A program made the translations under genes and the position numbers. Shown here piece by piece: positions 4,954-43,259 of a stretch of 43,975 nt of DNA. The DNA comes from Candidatus Giovannonibacteria bacterium (GTDB lineage Bacteria > Patescibacteriota > Minisyncoccia > JACPKW01 > UBA11713), in contig JAHFOJ010000005.1 of assembly GCA_023266875.1 (NCBI GenBank), positions 1 through 43,975 of the forward strand. The letters run 5' to 3'. The notes below the pieces were generated by a model. It was given only the letters and a program-made list of their open reading frames with translations, did no database searches and had not been told where the DNA came from. Position 1 is the stretch's first letter. Each line of letters starts with the position of its first letter.

Positions 4954-5024
4954 TGCGGGATACCAGAATTGAACTGGTGCCTGCTGCATGGGAAGCAGCC
5001 ATTCTGCCACTAAACTAATCCCGC
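4954..5024 (-). tRNA. tRNA-Gly(CCC), CCA not encoded
   Basis: GCGGGAT/ATCCCGC acceptor stem, anticodon arm GCTGC-TTCCCAT-GCAGC, T-loop GTTCAATTC. Confidence 0.93.
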
Positions 5025-5041
5025 AAATTTTGTTTAAAATT

Positions 5042-5422
5042 TCATCTGCCCAAAAAATTGGAAATAAAACCCCAAAATCCGCCGCTTGCCTTAATATCGG
5101 ACGAAGTCGGCGCGTTTACGGGATTAACTATAATAAGAACTTCCTCTCCTGGCTTCTTCACGTTGAATCGTTCTTTCGCCTCTTTTTCAAGGCCTTCGGG
5201 CGTGCCAAGCCGTTCTATCCTCTCTTCTAATCTGATTTTTTCCTCCTCTAAATTTCTAGCGCGAGCGGCAATTTCCTCGCTTGTTTTATAAGCGCCGTAT
5301 GCTTTAAATACCGCCTTAACCGCCGCCCCTGCGCTCAAAATAGCTAAAACCAGCATTACCGAAAGCGCCGGCTTTGAAAAAATAATTCTTTTCAGTTTTC
5401 GCCTCTCTTGAAATAAGCGCAT
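5042..5422 (-). CDS. ftsB: Septum formation initiator, FtsB/DivIC family
   Basis: N-terminal TM, coiled coil, then LEKEAKERFNVKKPGEEV motif. Confidence 0.85.
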   Translation of the reverse strand: MRLFQERRKLKRIIFSKPALSVMLVLAILSAGAAVKAVFKAYGAYKTSEEIAARARNLEEEKIRLEERIERLGTPEGLEKEAKERFNVKKPGEEVLIIVNPVNAPTSSDIKASGGFWGFISNFLGR

Positions 5423-5441
5423 AAAAAATTATAATTAAATA

Positions 5442-5549
5442 GTGATTGGTACAAAGCACAAAAAACGATATGAAATAATCTGGAACATAATATCCATCAT
5501 CGCCGTTTTAGGCATGATCGCCTTTCTATTGATTCCGCTCCTAGGCTAA
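5442..5549 (+). CDS. Small single-TM protein (35 aa), below the ORF-track cutoff
   Basis: GTG..TAA translates to MIGTKHKKRYEIIWNIISIIAVLGMIAFLLIPLLG. Basic N-terminus plus one TM helix; TATAAT lies 6 nt upstream. Confidence 0.6.
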   Translation: MIGTKHKKRYEIIWNIISIIAVLGMIAFLLIPLLG

Positions 5550-5574
5550 TTCTAAATAAGCCTTGCCGTTATGT

Positions 5575-7368
5575 CTATTTTTTTATCATTTGAATAAAAA
5601 CTTCCGGAGGAATTGAAAAGCGCGCTTCTTCTTTCAATCGCTTTTTGCCTTCCTTCTGTTTTTCCCAAAGCTTCATTTTTCGCGTCCGGTCGCCGCCGTA
5701 AAGATACCCCGTCACGTCTTTTTTTAAAGCTTTTTTCGTCCGTGAGGCAATAATGCGTCCAAGAGAGCGCGCCTGAATTTTCAGTGAGAATAAAGCCTGC
5801 GGAAGAATTTTATAGAGTTTTTCTACCGCTTCCTCCGCTTCATGTTCAAGGCGCGATCTAGGAACAATTCTAGAAAAAGCCGCGACCGGGCTTTCGGCGA
5901 CTAAAATATCCATGCGCAAAAGATCGCCGGAGCGCATTCCTAAGAATTCATAATTAAGCGAGGCGTAACCCTGTGAAACAGATTTAAGCTCATCAAAAAA
6001 TCCGCGAGCAAGCTCGCGAAGCGGTATCTCTGCTTCAAGTTTCAAGCGATTTTCTGAAAATCTGTCTGTCGCCCCAGTAACGGCTTCGTGAAGCGTTAAG
6101 AGTTTTAAGACATCCGAAAGCTTATCCGGAGGCAAAAGGATTTCGAGCTTGAGCCACGGCTCGAGGATTTCAATAATGTCATGCTCATCTGGAAATTTAT
6201 GCGGCGAATAAACATCGAATTCCGCCTTCTTGGTTTTTACATGATATTTAACCGTGGGACTTGCCACAATCGTTTCCAAATTAAAATCACGGTGAATTCT
6301 TTCCGCTATTATCTCCAAATGAAGCATGCCTAAAAATCCACATTTAAATCCCCGTCCCAGAATTCCCGATGATTCTTCCTCAAAAGAAAAAGAGCTGTCC
6401 GAGAGCCGCAATCTTTCAAGCGCGCGGCGAAAGTCTTCAAATTGATCCTGATCTTCTGGGTATAGAGATGAAAAAACCACTGGTTTCGGCTCCTCATATC
6501 CTGGATGCGCAGGAAGCGCCGAATCTTCGCGGGTAAGTGTATCTCCCACACGTACGATTTTTGCTTCTTTAAAATTTGTAACTATGTATCCTATTTCACC
6601 GGCTCCAAGTTTTTCGCGCGAAACTAGCTCAGGACGGAAAATCCCCACATCACCAGACGCAAAAGATTCTTTTGACGCGACAAGTTTCAGGCGATCGCCC
6701 CTTTTAATTTCTCCTGAAAACACTCGCACGTGCGCTATAACTCCCCTGTGGGAAGAATATTCAAAATCAAAAATTAACGCTTGTGTCTCGCCTATCACGC
6801 CAGCCCGAGGGTTCGGAGCAGGGATGCGCCGAACAATTTCTTCGAGCAAATGTCCTACGCCCTCGCCCGTCCGCGCTGATACTTCAAGAATTTCACTATC
6901 CGAGACAGAAAGAAAATTTTTAATTTCCTCCCGGACTTCAGAAACCCGAGCGTGAGGCAAATCGATTTTATTTATCGCTGGAATTATAGTTAATTTTTGA
7001 GCGCGCGCGAGCTCAAGAACGGAAAGAGTCTGCGCTTCCACTCCCTGTGTTGCATCCACGAGCAAGACCGCACCTTCAACCGCGGCAAGCGCACGCGAAA
7101 CTTCGTATGAAAAATCTATGTGGCCCGGCGTGTCAATCAAATTCAGAATATACTCGGGCCCTGACCCGTTAAAGGATCGCCAAATCATTCTAACGGGTTG
7201 CATTTTAATGGTTATCCCCCGCTCGCGCTCAAGCGGCATTTGATCCAAATATTGTTCTTTCATTTTCCGGGCTTCAACTGTTTTCGTAATCTCAAGCATC
7301 CGATCAGCAAGAGTGGACTTGCCGTGGTCAATATGGGCAATGATAGAGAAATTTCGAATATTGGACAT
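5575..7368 (-). CDS. lepA: Translation elongation factor 4 (LepA)
   Basis: IRNFSIIAHIDHGKSTLADR, DTPGH, NKID, GFLGMLHLEI, YGGDRTRKMKLWEKQKEGKK. Confidence 0.98.
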   Translation of the reverse strand: MSNIRNFSIIAHIDHGKSTLADRMLEITKTVEARKMKEQYLDQMPLERERGITIKMQPVRMIWRSFNGSGPEYILNLIDTPGHIDFSYEVSRALAAVEGAVLLVDATQGVEAQTLSVLELARAQKLTIIPAINKIDLPHARVSEVREEIKNFLSVSDSEILEVSARTGEGVGHLLEEIVRRIPAPNPRAGVIGETQALIFDFEYSSHRGVIAHVRVFSGEIKRGDRLKLVASKESFASGDVGIFRPELVSREKLGAGEIGYIVTNFKEAKIVRVGDTLTREDSALPAHPGYEEPKPVVFSSLYPEDQDQFEDFRRALERLRLSDSSFSFEEESSGILGRGFKCGFLGMLHLEIIAERIHRDFNLETIVASPTVKYHVKTKKAEFDVYSPHKFPDEHDIIEILEPWLKLEILLPPDKLSDVLKLLTLHEAVTGATDRFSENRLKLEAEIPLRELARGFFDELKSVSQGYASLNYEFLGMRSGDLLRMDILVAESPVAAFSRIVPRSRLEHEAEEAVEKLYKILPQALFSLKIQARSLGRIIASRTKKALKKDVTGYLYGGDRTRKMKLWEKQKEGKKRLKEEARFSIPPEVFIQMIKK

Positions 7369-7395
7369 GGTTCAAGTGTAATTTCAAAAAGAAAT

Positions 7396-7448
7396 AAAAA
7401 AAAGCCCCAGGGTTCTAGCTGAATGGTGTCAGCATTACCCCGGGGCTT
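7396..7448 (-). terminator. Intrinsic terminator ending the candidate ncRNA
   Basis: Minus strand AAGCCCCGGGGT..ACCCTGGGGCTT stem with inner GCTGA/TCAGC helix, followed by a U-run. Confidence 0.8.
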
Positions 7449-7870
7449 GCCTGCGCTATGGACTAGCGCCCTTACGCAAGCTTGCAAAGCCTTTCAAGTC
7501 CATTGCTGGACCTCCTTCCAAAAAGCTTTCAGAACAAATCCGTCCCGCGCGCCTCGTCGCTGCTTTGAACACTCGACTCGACTTTTTTGCGGCAACTCGA
7601 CCGTGGGACTCGCCTGCGATGGCAGACGAGAAAAAGTCCAACACGGGTATGGGCCGCATTTTTTGCTAACGGTCTCGTTTTTCCCGGGACCTGCAGATCC
7701 CGATGGCACAGCCCCAAAAGCTGGGGCGCGCGATATATCTAAAACTTCCAGATAAATGCAGCGGTACGAGGCGCGCGGAAACTTTAAAACTAAAACGTGG
7801 ACGGACGTGCTACACCTCATACCTGGATGGTATAAGGTCGCTCTTATCCGCCCTGTCAAAGTGCTATTTA
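7396..7870 (-). ncRNA. Candidate large structured non-coding RNA of unknown family (~475 nt)
   Basis: Own promoter and terminator, about ten helices including a 19-bp long-range stem (7545-7563/7758-7778), strand-specific G-U pairs, a GCAA tetraloop and no protein-like ORF. Confidence 0.7.
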
Positions 7871-7876
7871 GTGGTC

Positions 7877-7904
7877 ATTGTACTCCCTCCACAGAAATTG
7901 TCAA
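7877..7904 (-). promoter_or_regulatory. Near-consensus sigma70 promoter for the candidate ncRNA
   Basis: TTGACA (7904-7899), 16-nt spacer, TACAAT (7882-7877); boxA-like AGCACTTTGACA follows at 7865-7854. Confidence 0.8.
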
Positions 7905-7946
7905 CCGCGCGTAGCAAAATATATGTCGAGATCGCATCTCGACATA

Positions 7947-9632
7947 TTAGGGGAGTTTTTCTGGTTCAGAGGCCACCACAAAAACCCGACTCCATACTTT
8001 TGAGTGAAATGCTTCGGCAAGCTCTTTGAATTCCTGATTTCCAAGCCGCCAAAGTATGATGCCTCCGAGCAAAAGCCCAAGCACGCCAGAGATGAACCCT
8101 TGCAAAAAAATTCCCAAAAATGTTTCAAGATTCAGGATCATTGAAAGCGGCTTGAGCGCGAGATAAACGGAGATGCCAATAAACACACTCGCGGTCAGAG
8201 TGTCCCGAAGAGAGCGCGATAAAACATTATCGCCAAAACTTCCGAAGATTTTTCTAAAATGCCACAATAGTAAGCCTACATTAATCAAACTGCCTAAAGA
8301 TATTGCCAAAGGCAATATGAGAATGGCCGACTGTGAAATATCGCCTACTCTTAGAAAACCAGAAAACCAAGATTGAAACGCCGGAGAATGATTAAACAAA
8401 GAAAGCAGCCAAAACGCGCTGGCTATGGTAGAGACAGACGCAATGATGTTTATGAGAACAGGCAAAAAAGTGTGTCCTGCCGCATAAAAAGCGCGAACCA
8501 AAAGATAGACCAAGCCCTGCGCAAGAATAGAAAGCGAAAATAATAAAAGCGAGGCAGCAGTGAGGCGAGTATCAAGCCAAGAGAACGCGCCCGCGCCCAA
8601 AATAACCCGGACAATTTGCGCGCGAAGCACTATAAATAAAACAGTCGCGGGAAGTGACCAAAATACAATGTGCCGGAGCGTGAGCAAAAAATATTTTAAA
8701 AAATCTTTTTTGTCTTCTTTGGCGAATGAAGCGGCAAGAGTGGGGAAAGCGGAGACGCTGTAGGATAGGCCGATCACCGTGAGCGGAACTGACTGCAAAT
8801 TAGATGCAAGATTAAAGATTGAAACCGCACCAACGCCTAAGGTTGACCCAATCGCCGTCAAAATAGTTAAAACAATCTGATTTAACGAGAGACCAAGGGT
8901 ACGCGGAGCGGAAAGCTTCAGCGCTTCGCGCATATCATCATTAAAACGCGGCAAATTCAGACGCAATTTAAAACCGAGCGAAATCGCGCTTGGGAGCTGG
9001 ACTGCGAGATGCAAGAACGCTCCAATCACTACACCCCAAACAATGCCGCTAATTCCATATCTGGGCAGAAGATATATAATCCCAATAATAATCCCCAAAT
9101 TATAGAGAAGTGGCGAAAGCGCATAGATATAGAAACGCCGGAAAGATTGAATTACCGAGGAAACAAGATTTGAAAGCCCTAAAAAAAGAGGAGAGAGAAG
9201 CAAAATCCGAGAAAGCAGGATAACTTGAGCCCGATCAGCTCCCGAAAAACCGGGCGCGGCTAAGGAAATTAGGTGCGGCATTAAAAAATACGCGAGAATT
9301 ACTAGCGCCAGCACTGCAAATGTGAAAAAAGAAAAAATATTTGATAAAAACTCTTCTCCTTTTCTGTCGCTCTCTTTAAATTTATCAAGGATGATCGGGA
9401 TCAAAGCAGTGGAGGCCGCAAAAAATAGCGAGAGTGTGTAGACAAAATCCGGCACGCGAAACGAGACATAATACAAATCGAGAGTGCGGGATGCTCCAAA
9501 ATGCGCGGCGAGCAATCGATCACGGAGTAACGCTAAAATATCGGCCAGAATTCCGGAGATGGCGAGCAAAAAGGCGGCCTGATGGACGCCCTTTTGCTCC
9601 TGCGAAAAAAAATAAAGAATATTTTTGACCAT
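7947..9632 (-). CDS. murJ: Lipid II flippase MurJ (MviN)
   Basis: LLRDRLLAAHFGA, FRVPDFVY, SAFPTLA, RAFYA; about 14 TM segments. Confidence 0.93.
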   Translation of the reverse strand: MVKNILYFFSQEQKGVHQAAFLLAISGILADILALLRDRLLAAHFGASRTLDLYYVSFRVPDFVYTLSLFFAASTALIPIILDKFKESDRKGEEFLSNIFSFFTFAVLALVILAYFLMPHLISLAAPGFSGADRAQVILLSRILLLSPLFLGLSNLVSSVIQSFRRFYIYALSPLLYNLGIIIGIIYLLPRYGISGIVWGVVIGAFLHLAVQLPSAISLGFKLRLNLPRFNDDMREALKLSAPRTLGLSLNQIVLTILTAIGSTLGVGAVSIFNLASNLQSVPLTVIGLSYSVSAFPTLAASFAKEDKKDFLKYFLLTLRHIVFWSLPATVLFIVLRAQIVRVILGAGAFSWLDTRLTAASLLLFSLSILAQGLVYLLVRAFYAAGHTFLPVLINIIASVSTIASAFWLLSLFNHSPAFQSWFSGFLRVGDISQSAILILPLAISLGSLINVGLLLWHFRKIFGSFGDNVLSRSLRDTLTASVFIGISVYLALKPLSMILNLETFLGIFLQGFISGVLGLLLGGIILWRLGNQEFKELAEAFHSKVWSRVFVVASEPEKLP

Positions 9633-12394: not shown

Positions 12395-12408
12395 CTGATG
12401 GCAATATT

Positions 12409-12836
12409 GATGCGCCTGTAAGCCGAATTCTGTCCCGCCTACTTGCGTTGAGCTCGTGGCGGGGATGATCATTTATCTGTCCGAATCGTTGCCGAGTCGG
12501 ATCAAGCGGCACTCCCAGCCGTAGTTTGAAACCGAACAATTTCCAAAGAAAAAATTTATTTTAACTCCGTTTCAAACTACGGCTGGGCACGGCCTTGCAC
12601 CAGGTAGGGTTTTCCGCATTACGCTGTTGCCAACGTAACGAGTCGCCTTAAGCGACACTTTTCACCTTTTGTCTTGGTAAATTCCAAAACTAGTATTGTC
12701 TCTGTGGCACTTTCCGTCTTTGAGTTTTACCTCAAAGCGTGGCTGTTAGCCACTACCTTTGGCTCGTTTGTAACCAAACGAGGGTGTTCGGACTTTCCTC
12801 CCCGATTTTTCAATTGGAGCGACCACCCAACGCATC
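12409..12836 (-). ncRNA. rnpB: RNase P RNA
   Basis: Minus strand GAGGAAAGTCCG, AGTGCCACAGA, AAACCC..GCAAG, ACAGAATTCGGCTTA; P1 GATGCG/CGCATC; TTGATT-17-TATAAT promoter directly upstream. Confidence 0.97.
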
Positions 12837-12975
12837 TTTATTAATTATACTTTTAAAATCCATAAAAATCAAACTCAAATCTAAAACGCAATTTGGTCAC
12901 AATAACTTGCATTAATATACTGCCATCCATTACTATATAAGCCAGAGATCTTTCTCAAGAAAGGGGGTGAGAAGC

Positions 12976-42383: not shown

Positions 42384-42650
42384 GTGAACGTTGCATACGC
42401 CAAAACAGCGGAACAGGTCATTGGCGTTATAAGTTCAGGCATTCTCCAGCCGATAATTTATGTGCTCTTTGCGCTCGCCTTTGTAATATTCCTTTATGGA
42501 GTTGTGGAGTTTATCGCAAACGCGTCCAATGAAGAAAGGCGGACTGAAGGCAAACGGCATATGATTTGGGGAGCGCTCGGACTTTTTCTAATGTTTGCCG
42601 TAGGCGGAATCTTGAGGATATTAATAAATTTTGTGTCATCAATTCGCTAA
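42384..42650 (+). CDS. VirB2/TrbC-like pilin with a very short leader (start uncertain)
   Basis: VAYA..FLYGVVEFI..NEERRTEGKRHMIWGALGLFLM. Confidence 0.8.
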   Translation: MNVAYAKTAEQVIGVISSGILQPIIYVLFALAFVIFLYGVVEFIANASNEERRTEGKRHMIWGALGLFLMFAVGGILRILINFVSSIR

Positions 42651-42651
42651 T

Positions 42652-43227
42652 ATGCCTAAGAAAAGCAAAAAAACAAAAATTAAATTCACTGTCATTGAGA
42701 AAATCGGGATGACTTTTGTATTCGCCATGCTAATCGTTTCTATAGCATCCGCCCAGACATTCCAAGGCATTGCTACAAACATTGGCAATCTTCTTAACTT
42801 GGTTGTTCCAATATTGTTTATGGCGGCAACAGTTGTGTTTCTCGCCGGAGTAGTCAAATACATAGCGGCCGCGGGAAACGAAGAGAAACGCGAGGAAGGA
42901 AAGCAATTTATTTTCTGGGGTTTGATCGGCCTTTTTGTGATGGTCGCGATCTGGGGAATCATCAATCTTTTCGTAATGTTCTTCTTTAGTGGACGCCTGC
43001 CAAGCGCGCCAGACGTGCCTCAACTTCCGGGATATACTGGGGGAACAAGCGGAGGAGGTACTGGGAGTGGAGGTGGTGGTACCGGAGGAGGCGGAACTGG
43101 TGGCGGGGCAACTGGAGCCGACATTTGGGACCAAGGCGGTTTTGGAGGCTCCACTGCAAATAATAACCAACAAGCATGCGAGCAATCAGGTGGTATATGG
43201 ACAGGAACAGCTTGTAACGTTTATTGA
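42652..43227 (+). CDS. VirB2/TrbC-like pilin with Gly-rich tail and Cys pair
   Basis: GVVKYI..NEEKREEGKQFIFWGLIGLFVMVAIWGII, poly-G/T linker, ACEQSGGIWTGTAC. Confidence 0.85.
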   Translation: MPKKSKKTKIKFTVIEKIGMTFVFAMLIVSIASAQTFQGIATNIGNLLNLVVPILFMAATVVFLAGVVKYIAAAGNEEKREEGKQFIFWGLIGLFVMVAIWGIINLFVMFFFSGRLPSAPDVPQLPGYTGGTSGGGTGSGGGGTGGGGTGGGATGADIWDQGGFGGSTANNNQQACEQSGGIWTGTACNVY

Positions 43228-43259
43228 TTCCTTATATTGAATAATAAATAAGTCGAAGT

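What the first reader, a model, noticed from the sequence alone, without database searches (positions are those of the whole stretch)
7396..7904. Stand-alone ~475-nt highly structured RNA gene of unrecognised family between murJ and lepA
Seen on the minus strand: TTGACA-16-TACAAT promoter, then a GC-rich non-coding stretch, then a terminator. Helices in + coordinates: 7814-7823/7829-7838; 7800-7806/7538-7544; and a 19-bp long-range stem 7758-7778/7545-7563 with a 2-nt bulge. That stem encloses a ~195-nt multibranch domain with hairpins 7711-7727 and 7685-7702, plus a nested arm 7653-7658/7588-7593, 7642-7646/7601-7605, 7622-7630/7609-7617. After it come a GCAA-capped hairpin 7496-7513 and hairpin 7453-7469. 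The non-Watson-Crick pairs in these stems are G-U on the minus strand and would be A-C on the plus, matching the promoter and terminator direction. GTCGAGT occurs three times. Knowledge: it lacks tmRNA, SRP and RNase P hallmarks (rnpB is at 12.4 kb) and I see no group I/II intron core. Inference: a large ncRNA, possibly a new class of ornate bacterial RNA.
Basis: partly seen in the sequence, partly recalled or inferred. Interest (0 to 1): 0.9.

Follow-up and report, generated by a model that had tools for sequence, protein, structure and literature searches.

The report
Orphan structured RNA between murJ and lepA
A roughly 475-base stretch between two ordinary genes of a tiny groundwater bacterium folds far better than chance on one strand and has its own promoter and terminator, but nothing like it was found anywhere else, so it is a credible yet unproven one-off RNA gene.

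Summary
The murJ-lepA spacer (7369-7946) carries, on the minus strand, an 11/12 sigma-70 promoter (7904-7877), about 475 nt of GC-rich non-coding sequence and a strong intrinsic terminator (7402-7448 plus U8). The minus strand folds at -216.3 kcal/mol (z -7.9 against shuffles; -5.2 SD against a GC-adjusted background of 712 strand-windows of this genome). The plus strand gives only z -4.1. The fold has 20 G-U pairs on the minus strand against 5 on the plus. No Rfam family matches. No ORF has a Pfam match, the one ORF searched has no protein homologue, and none has gene-like codon usage.

There is no comparative support. BLAST and three single-sequence covariance models found only the query itself in 61 to 401 related genomes per search. 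Metagenome, viral, phage and plasmid searches were blank. In 8 family relatives murJ and lepA either abut or hold a Y1 transposase gene. The stretch is therefore a lineage-specific insert of about 540 bp. It begins with a REP-like hairpin (6 genomic copies, 3 flanking a Y1 gene).

Best reading (0.42): a stand-alone structured RNA, possibly dual-function, because it holds an SD-AUG 15-codon ORF sequestered in a GNRA hairpin. Rivals: a mobile or foreign relic, or a lepA leader. "New class" cannot be claimed from one sequence.

The parts
7921..7947 (.). REP-like perfect palindrome (12-bp arms, 3-nt loop), directly after the murJ stop codon and upstream of the promoter. It is not part of the RNA.
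   Evidence: I3. The core GTMGAGAT-N3-ATCTCKAC has 6 genomic copies and 0 in the reversed-pattern control. Three of the copies flank a Y1_Tnp gene on contig C9.
7877..7904 (-). Sigma-70-type promoter TTGACA-16-TACAAT. The inferred transcription start is about 7869-7872.
   Evidence: 11/12 match. Only 39 sites this good occur in the genome. The start site is inferred from spacing and has not been measured.
7396..7872 (-). Proposed transcript of about 475 nt.
   Evidence: Fold of 7396-7875: -216.3 kcal/mol, z -7.94. It lies -5.15 SD from the genome background. It has 159 pairs, 20 of them G-U.
7789..7864 (-). 5' domain: a long hairpin with an 8-bp helix, a roughly 7x7 internal loop interrupted by one predicted pair, and a 10-bp helix.
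   Evidence: helix probabilities 0.83-0.94. Model R2 finds only itself in 151 genomes.
7543..7780 (-). Central multibranch domain of 238 nt with 82 pairs, closed by a 21-bp helix with a 2-nt bulge. It holds three hairpins and one long nested arm.
   Evidence: Model R1 finds only itself in 151 relatives and in 151 genomes of the phylum.
7571..7601 (-). Three GTCGAGT copies. They share GTCGAG with the 5' arm of the REP-like hairpin.
   Evidence: Genome-wide the motif occurs 30 times on both strands.
7449..7542 (-). 3' domain: a small hairpin; a 10-bp plus 7-bp hairpin capped by GCAA, with a 6-nt GGAAGG bulge; and a two-tier hairpin at 7449-7481.
   Evidence: Model R3 finds only itself in 151 genomes.
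7456..7515 (-). GGAGG (7515-7511), then 7 nt, then AUG (7503), opening a 15-codon ORF that ends Pro-UAG (stop at 7458-7456). The SD and AUG lie inside the GCAA hairpin.
   Evidence: Read from the sequence. The SD context resembles real translation start sites of this genome listed. Translation has not been shown.
7396..7448 (-). Intrinsic terminator: a 12-bp GC-rich stem with an inner 5-bp hairpin, followed by U8.
   Evidence: I4. No competing antiterminator pairing was found.
7369..7403 (-). T-rich stretch just upstream of the lepA ATG. It supplies the terminator's U-tract and is shared with relative G006, so it predates the insert.
   Evidence: Compared by eye with L005. The insert is therefore about 7404-7946.

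Best explanation
The stretch is an independently transcribed, stand-alone structured RNA of about 475 nt on the minus strand.

Mechanism. Transcription starts from the TTGACA-16-TACAAT promoter at about 7870 and stops at the hairpin plus U8 terminator at about 7396. The RNA folds into three domains: a 5' hairpin, a 238-nt multibranch core closed by a 21-bp helix, and a 3' domain. It acts as an RNA (a protein-binding or scaffold type). It may be dual-function, because a 15-codon ORF with a good SD is locked inside a GNRA-capped hairpin.

Origin. It is a lineage-specific insert of about 540 bp into the murJ-lepA spacer, next to a REP-like hairpin. lepA would then be expressed from its old T-rich upstream region or by read-through.

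Shown: the promoter and terminator motifs, the thermodynamic and strand-specific structure, the non-coding nature, the insert status and the lack of relatives. Inferred: transcription, the transcript ends and any function.
For: - Promoter of 11/12, the only one in 7200-8200. Such sites are rare (39 in the genome). Several stand directly upstream of an SD plus start codon's listing, and one lies upstream of the tmRNA gene.
- Strong terminator in the same direction. No alternative antiterminator appears when its 3' arm is withheld.
- Minus-strand fold z -7.94, with 0 of 100 shuffles as stable, and -5.15 SD from 712 background strand-windows. Helix probabilities are mostly 0.7-0.99.
- Strand asymmetry: plus-strand z is only -4.11. 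There are 20 G-U pairs and no 1x1 A-C mismatch on the minus strand, against 5 G-U and 4 A.C/C.A mismatches on the plus. This fits drift under an RNA-level constraint.
- GC of 52.9% in a 42.8% genome.
- Not coding.
- A Logan contig of 4574 nt spans 4989-9562 with 0 differences. This argues against a mis-join, although that run may be the source of the assembly and so is not independent.
Against: - No relative was found anywhere that was searched, so there is no covariation and no conservation.
- The RNA is single-copy.
- In the 8 family relatives with a lepA match (8 of 9 non-self genomes), murJ and lepA are 0-90 nt apart (5 genomes) or hold a Y1 transposase gene (3 genomes). The element is therefore young or imported, and it sits at an insertion hot spot beside a REP-like hairpin.
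- The minus strand is slightly G+U-rich (52.3%), which explains part of the G-U excess.
- The U-tract of the terminator is older than the insert.
- No transcript evidence exists.
- The covariance models were built from one sequence and run with strict filters, so distant relatives could have been missed.
Confidence: 0.42

Rival explanations
1. The stretch is a relic or cargo of a mobile or foreign element with no role for the host. The 540-bp insert arrived with a Y1 (IS200-like/RAYT-like) element or by another transfer, and it carries a structured RNA gene or fragment from elsewhere. It may still be transcribed but is not under selection in this genome.
For: - The insert is absent from the 8 family relatives whose lepA locus was read.
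- Three relatives of genus g4 carry a Y1_Tnp gene (Pfam 7e-11) at exactly this site.
- The insert starts with a hairpin of a 6-copy family, 3 copies of which flank the Y1 gene on C9.
- GTCGAG, which forms half of that hairpin's stem, recurs 3 times inside the RNA.
- GC is 10 points above the genome.
- It is an orphan in every search.
Against: - Apart from the hairpin, the insert has no similarity to the C9 Y1 locus. The local alignment score is 22, against shuffles of 20.3 +/- 2.0. tblastn with a Y1 protein gives no hit in this spacer.
- No second end-hairpin is seen, and the body is single-copy.
- There are no matches in phages, plasmids or viral contigs.
- A decaying fragment would not be expected to keep a near-perfect promoter, a terminator, 159 pairs and a 20-to-5 G-U asymmetry.
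Confidence: 0.27
2. The stretch is a cis-acting 5' leader of lepA. The promoter at 7904 is the lepA promoter, and the structured RNA, together with its 15-codon ORF ending in Pro-stop, controls read-through of the terminator that lies 27 nt before the lepA start codon.
For: - The order promoter, long leader, short ORF, terminator, gene, all on one strand, is the layout of attenuators.
- No other promoter-like site of at least 9/12 lies between the terminator and lepA.
- lepA has no SD of its own.
Against: - No antiterminator was found. With the 3' arm blocked, the 5' arm of the terminator finds only 2-5 scattered weak pairs.
- None of the 8 relatives has any leader before lepA.
- The roughly 35 nt before the lepA ATG are shared with G006, which has no insert. 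They contain a -10-like TACACT 6 nt before the ATG, so lepA may keep its own weak, possibly leaderless, promoter (inference).
- 475 nt is far longer than the riboswitch, T-box and leader-peptide leaders I know of (recalled, not tested).
Confidence: 0.17
3. The stretch is a protein-coding gene. The candidates are the 121-codon minus-strand ORF 7494-7859 and the plus-strand ORFs 7423-7755 and 7703-8029.
For: A 126-codon stop-free frame lies on the promoter strand. By rough estimate this would arise by chance in only a few percent of cases at this GC.
Against: - No Pfam family matches at E <= 1.
- For the 121-aa ORF, none of 8 candidates scored E <= 0.01 in the collection of 5.8 billion protein clusters. 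The two plus-strand ORFs were not put to that search.
- Codon log-odds are -0.054, -0.054 and -0.014, about 3.3 to 3.9 SD below real genes.
- The 121-codon ORF starts with TTG and has no SD.
Confidence: 0.04

Closest known systems
Large structured bacterial ncRNAs of unknown or recently emerging function (OLE, ROOL, GOLLD, raiA, HEARO)
   Same: It is several hundred nt long and multi-domain, with long-range closing helices. It is GC-rich relative to its genome, lies in an intergenic region and has its own transcription signals.
   Different: It matches none of their Rfam models, even at E up to 10. Those families are defined by many members with covariation, whereas this is one sequence with no relative. 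What I state about their properties is recalled, not tested here.
Dual-function RNAs such as S. aureus RNAIII (hld) or E. coli SgrS (SgrT)
   Same: It is a long structured RNA that also holds a short ORF with a good SD. Its length is close to that of RNAIII (about 514 nt, recalled).
   Different: No sequence or structural homology was tested or expected. Translation of the 15-codon ORF has not been shown. An SD plus AUG at the right spacing could arise by chance in a few percent of such stretches (my estimate).
Terminator-antiterminator leaders (riboswitches, T-boxes, leader-peptide attenuators)
   Same: It has a promoter, a leader, a short ORF and an intrinsic terminator directly before a gene on the same strand.
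   Different: There is no alternative pairing that would open the terminator. No orthologous lepA carries it. No Rfam cis-regulatory family matches.
REP/RAYT elements and non-autonomous IS200/IS605 derivatives
   Same: The palindrome at 7921-7947 belongs to a small hairpin family that flanks a Y1 transposase gene. The same intergenic site holds a Y1 gene in three relatives.
   Different: The RNA body is single-copy, has no similarity to the Y1 locus and has no second end-hairpin. The hairpin lies outside the predicted transcript.

Membership tests
Any Rfam 15 family (includes OLE, ROOL, GOLLD, HEARO, raiA, tmRNA, RNase P, SRP, 6S, T-box, riboswitches, group I/II introns) | A score at or above the family's gathering threshold against its covariance model | tested here: not met
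   4 matches in the window (RNase P and 3 tRNAs), none in 7369-7946. (E up to 10): three matches of 12.2-15.8 bits against thresholds of 36.5-50.
Bacterial SRP RNA | A domain IV match, plus an Ffh partner in the genome | tested here: not met
   RF00169 and RF01854 give no match in the genome. SRP_SPB, the SRP54 GTPase domain and TIGR00959 are absent, and TIGR00064 gives only a sub-threshold 13.9-bit match. Loss of SRP in Parcubacteria is in print (PMC4508563, passages read).
6S RNA | A rod-like hairpin of about 180-200 nt with a central bubble, and an RF00013 match | tested here: not met
   There is no RF00013 match in the genome or in the region. The fold is multibranch and about 475 nt long.
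tmRNA | A tRNA-like domain plus a tag reading frame | tested here: not met
   ARAGORN finds none in the window. The genome's tmRNA is on C7:6878-7229 at 125.8 bits.
Transcription-attenuation leader | A promoter, a leader and an intrinsic terminator directly upstream of the regulated gene on the same strand | tested here: met
   The terminator ends 27 nt before the lepA ATG.
Transcription-attenuation leader | An antiterminator structure that is mutually exclusive with the terminator | tested here: not met
   with the 3' arm blocked or not yet made, the 5' arm forms only scattered weak pairs.
Transcription-attenuation leader | Presence upstream of orthologous genes in relatives | tested here: not met
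   0 of 8 family relatives with a lepA match have it.
REP/RAYT or IS200/IS605-derived element | A hairpin repeated in the genome and associated with a Y1 transposase gene | tested here: met
   This holds for 7921-7947 only: 6 copies, 3 of them around the C9 Y1 gene.
REP/RAYT or IS200/IS605-derived element | An element body bounded by both end-hairpins and/or present in several copies | tested here: not met
   The body is single-copy. There is no second hairpin and no similarity to the Y1 locus beyond the hairpin.
Protein-coding gene | Gene-like codon usage and detectable homologues or domains | tested here: not met
Large ornate ncRNA (as a kind, not a homologous family) | A multi-domain fold of several hundred nt that is far more stable than shuffled and genomic controls, on one strand | tested here: met
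Large ornate ncRNA (as a kind, not a homologous family) | Conservation with covariation across genomes | tested here: inconclusive
   No relative was found, so the feature cannot be assessed. The genus has only this genome in the set.
Dual-function sRNA | A translated short ORF within a structured regulatory RNA | not testable with these tools
   The SD, a 7-nt spacer, the AUG and 15 codons are present. Translation is unknown.

The most novel reading that the evidence does not exclude
This is the first seen member of a new family of large structured RNAs in SRP-less Parcubacteria-type bacteria. It would be a stand-alone, roughly 475-nt, three-domain RNA that may also encode a 15-residue peptide ending in Pro-stop. 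Its relatives would be missing only because no other genome of its genus has been sequenced.
Probability: 0.25. Interest if true: 0.7.

Novelty: new variant of a known kind. Interest (0 to 1): 0.42.

Why it matters
Genomes of this radiation are about 0.7 Mb and have little spare DNA, so a 540-bp insert that keeps a near-consensus promoter, a terminator and 159 base pairs stands out. If it is functional, it would add a large RNA to a group in which I found no described lineage-specific RNAs. That statement rests on two full-text searches, the second of which was too broad to be decisive. It would also give a case of a young RNA gene arising at a transposon hot spot. As the evidence stands, it is one sequence without relatives or transcript data. 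Its value is as a well-defined candidate for read-level metatranscriptome mapping and chemical probing, not as a new class.

Tried and rejected
**Homologue searches, all blank**
- BLAST in 61 relatives found only the query.
- BLAST in the order (10 genomes) gave only 16-24-nt matches, best E 0.07.
- BLAST in 401 genomes of the class gave 5 non-self hits of 24-35 nt. Two lie in the 3' end of rplX in G365 and G211. Two lie inside long ORFs. One lies in a divergent promoter region of G166. The genome's own rplX on C24 gave no hit to the spacer in the word-9 blastn. Models R1 and R2, run with filters off on these 5 loci, gave only generic hairpins.
- Covariance models R1, R2 and R3 matched only the query itself.
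- The search for related loci with MurJ, and with the translation of the spurious ORF in metagenome, viral and genome contigs, found no relative.
- Distant blastn against phages and plasmids gave no match.
- A motif scan for the triple GTCGAGT in genome contigs returned 80 loci (of at least 120 matching stretches), from mostly high-GC and apparently unrelated organisms. R1 on those 80 loci gave only stem-only hits of at most 17 bits. Rejected as chance.

**Expression**
- The look-up of sequencing runs listed no RNA holder. Only the probable source sample holds the stretch.
- Logan contigs of the same sample's metatranscriptome (X2) gave no cover on 7396-7875. Contigs cannot show absence, so this counts neither for nor against.

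**Identities considered and dropped**
- A decayed Y1 gene.
- An L24-related pseudogene.
- An antiterminator.
- SRP RNA, 6S RNA and tmRNA.
- A DGR template or a repeat copy elsewhere in the genome.

**Scans**
- The genome-wide 480-nt fold scan was stopped after 356 of 2809 windows for time.
- A 240-nt scan of regions poor in long ORFs (1140 windows) cuts the long-range stem. It ranks this locus only about 35th of the merged regions listed (z -3.75). At that window size the locus is not exceptional.

- Supplements of papers were not opened.

Full report
**Setting**

The window is contig C19 of a 0.68-Mb genome in 25 contigs, 91.5% complete. murJ lies at 7947-9632 on the minus strand (Pfam MurJ 6.8e-67). 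lepA lies at 5575-7368 on the minus strand (GTP_EFTU 2e-55, LepA_C 3.1e-29). They leave a 578-bp spacer, 7369-7946. At gathering score, Rfam finds RNase P RNA at 12403-12838 and three tRNAs in the window, and nothing in the spacer.

**The observation**

Read on the minus strand, the spacer runs in this order:
- a perfect 12-bp palindrome directly after the murJ stop codon (7947-7921)
- TTGACA-16-TACAAT (7904-7877; 11/12; the only promoter-like site in 7200-8200)
- about 475 nt without a credible ORF
- a 12-bp GC-rich hairpin followed by U8 (7448-7396)
- 27 nt
- the lepA ATG

Only 39 sites match the sigma-70 consensus this well in the whole genome on both strands. In one search's listing several stand just upstream of an SD plus start codon, and one lies upstream of the tmRNA gene. 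The organism therefore appears to use such promoters.

Folding gives the following.
- The stretch 7396-7875 folds at -216.3 kcal/mol on the minus strand. Shuffles average -159.5 +/- 7.2, so z is -7.94 and 0 of 100 shuffles do as well.
- The plus strand gives -174.5 kcal/mol and z -4.11.
- I regressed MFE on GC for 712 strand-windows of 480 nt from this genome. These were the first 356 of 2809 windows; the scan was cut for time. Against that regression the minus strand lies -5.15 SD, beyond the most extreme background window at -4.16. The plus strand lies -1.94 SD.
- The minus-strand fold has 159 pairs, 20 of them G-U, and no 1x1 A-C mismatch. The plus-strand fold has 139 pairs, 5 G-U and four A.C/C.A mismatches.
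The exception is 7800-7806/7538-7544, which has probability 0.0. Bases 7799-7806 pair with 7846-7853 instead.
- GTCGAGT occurs three times in the stretch.
- GC is 52.9% against 42.8% for the genome.

**Not coding, not a known RNA**

- The three longest ORFs in the stretch have no Pfam match at E <= 1.
- The 121-codon minus-strand ORF has no relative in the large protein collection: 8 candidates, none at E <= 0.01.
- Codon log-odds of the long ORFs are -0.054 to -0.014, against 0.221 +/- 0.071 for 200 windows of real genes.
- With E up to 10, Rfam gives only three matches of 12-16 bits.
- tmRNA is on C7.
- SRP RNA and 6S RNA models find nothing in the genome.
- The SRP proteins are also missing. 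This loss is already described for Parcubacteria (PMC4508563, passages read). A diverged SRP RNA is therefore not expected here.

**Relatives and origin**

Nothing similar was found.
- BLAST found only the query in 61 relatives and in the whole order of 10 genomes. In 401 genomes of the class it found only chance-level fragments of 24-35 nt, which I inspected.
- Single-sequence covariance models of the 5' hairpin (R2), the central domain (R1) and the 3' domain (R3) hit only the query in 151 relatives each.
- R1 also hit only the query in 151 genomes spread over the phylum.
- Metagenome, viral and genome-contig scans, phage and plasmid collections and a motif scan were all blank.
- The genus has no other genome in the set.

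Synteny explains why there is no room for the element in relatives.
- In 5 of the 8 family relatives with a lepA match, murJ and lepA are 0-90 nt apart.
- In the other 3 (genus g4), a 225-233-aa Y1_Tnp gene lies between them.
- The roughly 35 nt before the lepA ATG, including the T-run that serves as the terminator's U-tract, are shared with relative G006.

The insert is therefore about 7404-7946.

Its first element is the palindrome at 7921-7947. This belongs to a family of 6 hairpins in the genome, with 0 in the control. Three of them flank one of the genome's four Y1 transposase genes, on C9. One on C14 is followed by a perfect consensus promoter, as here. Beyond the hairpin, the insert shows no similarity to the Y1 locus.

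**How it most likely works**

The signals favour a separate transcript that starts at about 7870 and ends at about 7396.
- I looked for an attenuator. With the terminator's 3' arm withheld, its 5' arm finds no stable partner. No orthologous lepA has a leader. This weighs against cis-regulation of lepA, although the layout alone would allow it.
- The 3' domain holds GGAGG, a 7-nt spacer, an AUG and 15 codons ending Pro-UAG. The SD and AUG are both paired inside a GCAA-capped hairpin. The SD context looks like real start sites of this genome. This makes a dual-function RNA, or a structure-gated small ORF, possible. By my rough estimate such a motif could arise by chance in a few percent of stretches.
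- The G-U asymmetry suggests that the sequence has drifted under an RNA-level constraint. Part of it may reflect the 52% G+U composition.

The function of the RNA is not shown by anything here. I commit to a stand-alone structured RNA at 0.42. The rivals are a foreign or mobile relic at 0.27, a lepA leader at 0.17 and a protein gene at 0.04. The remainder covers artefact or other explanations. A Logan contig spanning 4989-9562 without differences argues against a mis-join, but it is probably from the source data.

**Comparison and novelty**

In kind, the stretch resembles the large structured bacterial RNAs and, through its small ORF, dual-function RNAs such as RNAIII. It is a member of none of them. 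It fails two of the three attenuator features that I tested. Only its upstream hairpin meets the REP criteria.

With one sequence and no covariation, "new class" is not warranted. It is a well-defined orphan candidate. The literature searches (listings and abstract starts only) turned up no description of such an RNA in this group, but the second search was too broad to be decisive. Supplements were not available.

**Verdict**

Interest is 0.42. The value could rise sharply with read-level transcript ends, or with a handful of relatives that show covariation.

Noticed in passing
window 7921-7947; G000:C9:34918-34936, 42488-42506, 43177-43195, 43225-43243; G000:C14:5014-5032: A small family of 6 REP-like hairpins (8-bp arms, 3-nt loop). 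Three flank a Y1_Tnp gene on C9. On C14 and C19 the hairpin is followed within 8-16 nt by a near-perfect sigma-70 promoter, and on C9 a promoter lies 24 nt away. It could be a transposase end, a mobile hairpin-promoter unit or an operator.
   Followed up: partly
L008:807-1505, L009:810-1505, L010:831-1505 (relatives G003, G008, G007): In the three g4 relatives whose locus showed it (G003, G008, G007), a 225-233-aa IS200-like Y1 transposase gene sits between murJ and lepA, preceded by its own short hairpins. The murJ-lepA junction is therefore a recurrent insertion site in this family.
   Followed up: partly
whole genome G000 and relatives: No SRP RNA, Ffh or FtsY was found. RF00169 matched 0 of 10 family genomes. 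SRP_SPB matched 0 of 81 genomes of the class. The SRP54 GTPase domain scored over the cut-off in 0 of 10. TIGR00959 and TIGR00064 gave nothing over the cut-off in G000. This loss is already published for Parcubacteria (PMC4508563, passages read).
   Followed up: yes
G000:C1:20194-20444 minus strand (L031:1195-1445): A second strongly structured intergenic stretch of 251 nt (z -6.74, 0 of 200 shuffles as stable). It has a terminator-like hairpin and a 13-bp inverted repeat around GCGATCGC motifs. No Rfam match lies within this stretch at E <= 0.1; the only hit in the 3-kb locus is elsewhere.
   Followed up: partly
window 7369-7395: lepA has no Shine-Dalgarno sequence. A -10-like TACACT ends 6 nt before its ATG, within a T-rich stretch shared with relative G006. 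This hints at a leaderless or very short-leader lepA mRNA (inference only).
   Followed up: no
window 12607-12715: A 111-nt contig of the same-sample metatranscriptome (X2) matches the RNase P RNA gene without any difference, at word depth 226.6. The organism's rnpB therefore seems to be represented in that RNA library.
   Followed up: no
window 7437-7455 vs 7600-7618, and 7725-7746 vs 7770-7791: Two internal direct repeats of 19 and 22 nt (79% and 77% identity) lie inside the RNA. Part of the structure may have grown by internal duplication.
   Followed up: no
window 7652-7686 vs L034:1501-1533 and L037 (about 1500-1535): A 35-nt stretch of the RNA is 82-89% identical to the 3' end of rplX (the L24 C-terminus...CKKCG...) in two unrelated genomes of the class. 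The genome's own rplX (C24) gave no hit to the spacer in the word-9 blastn, so I judged this to be chance.
   Followed up: yes
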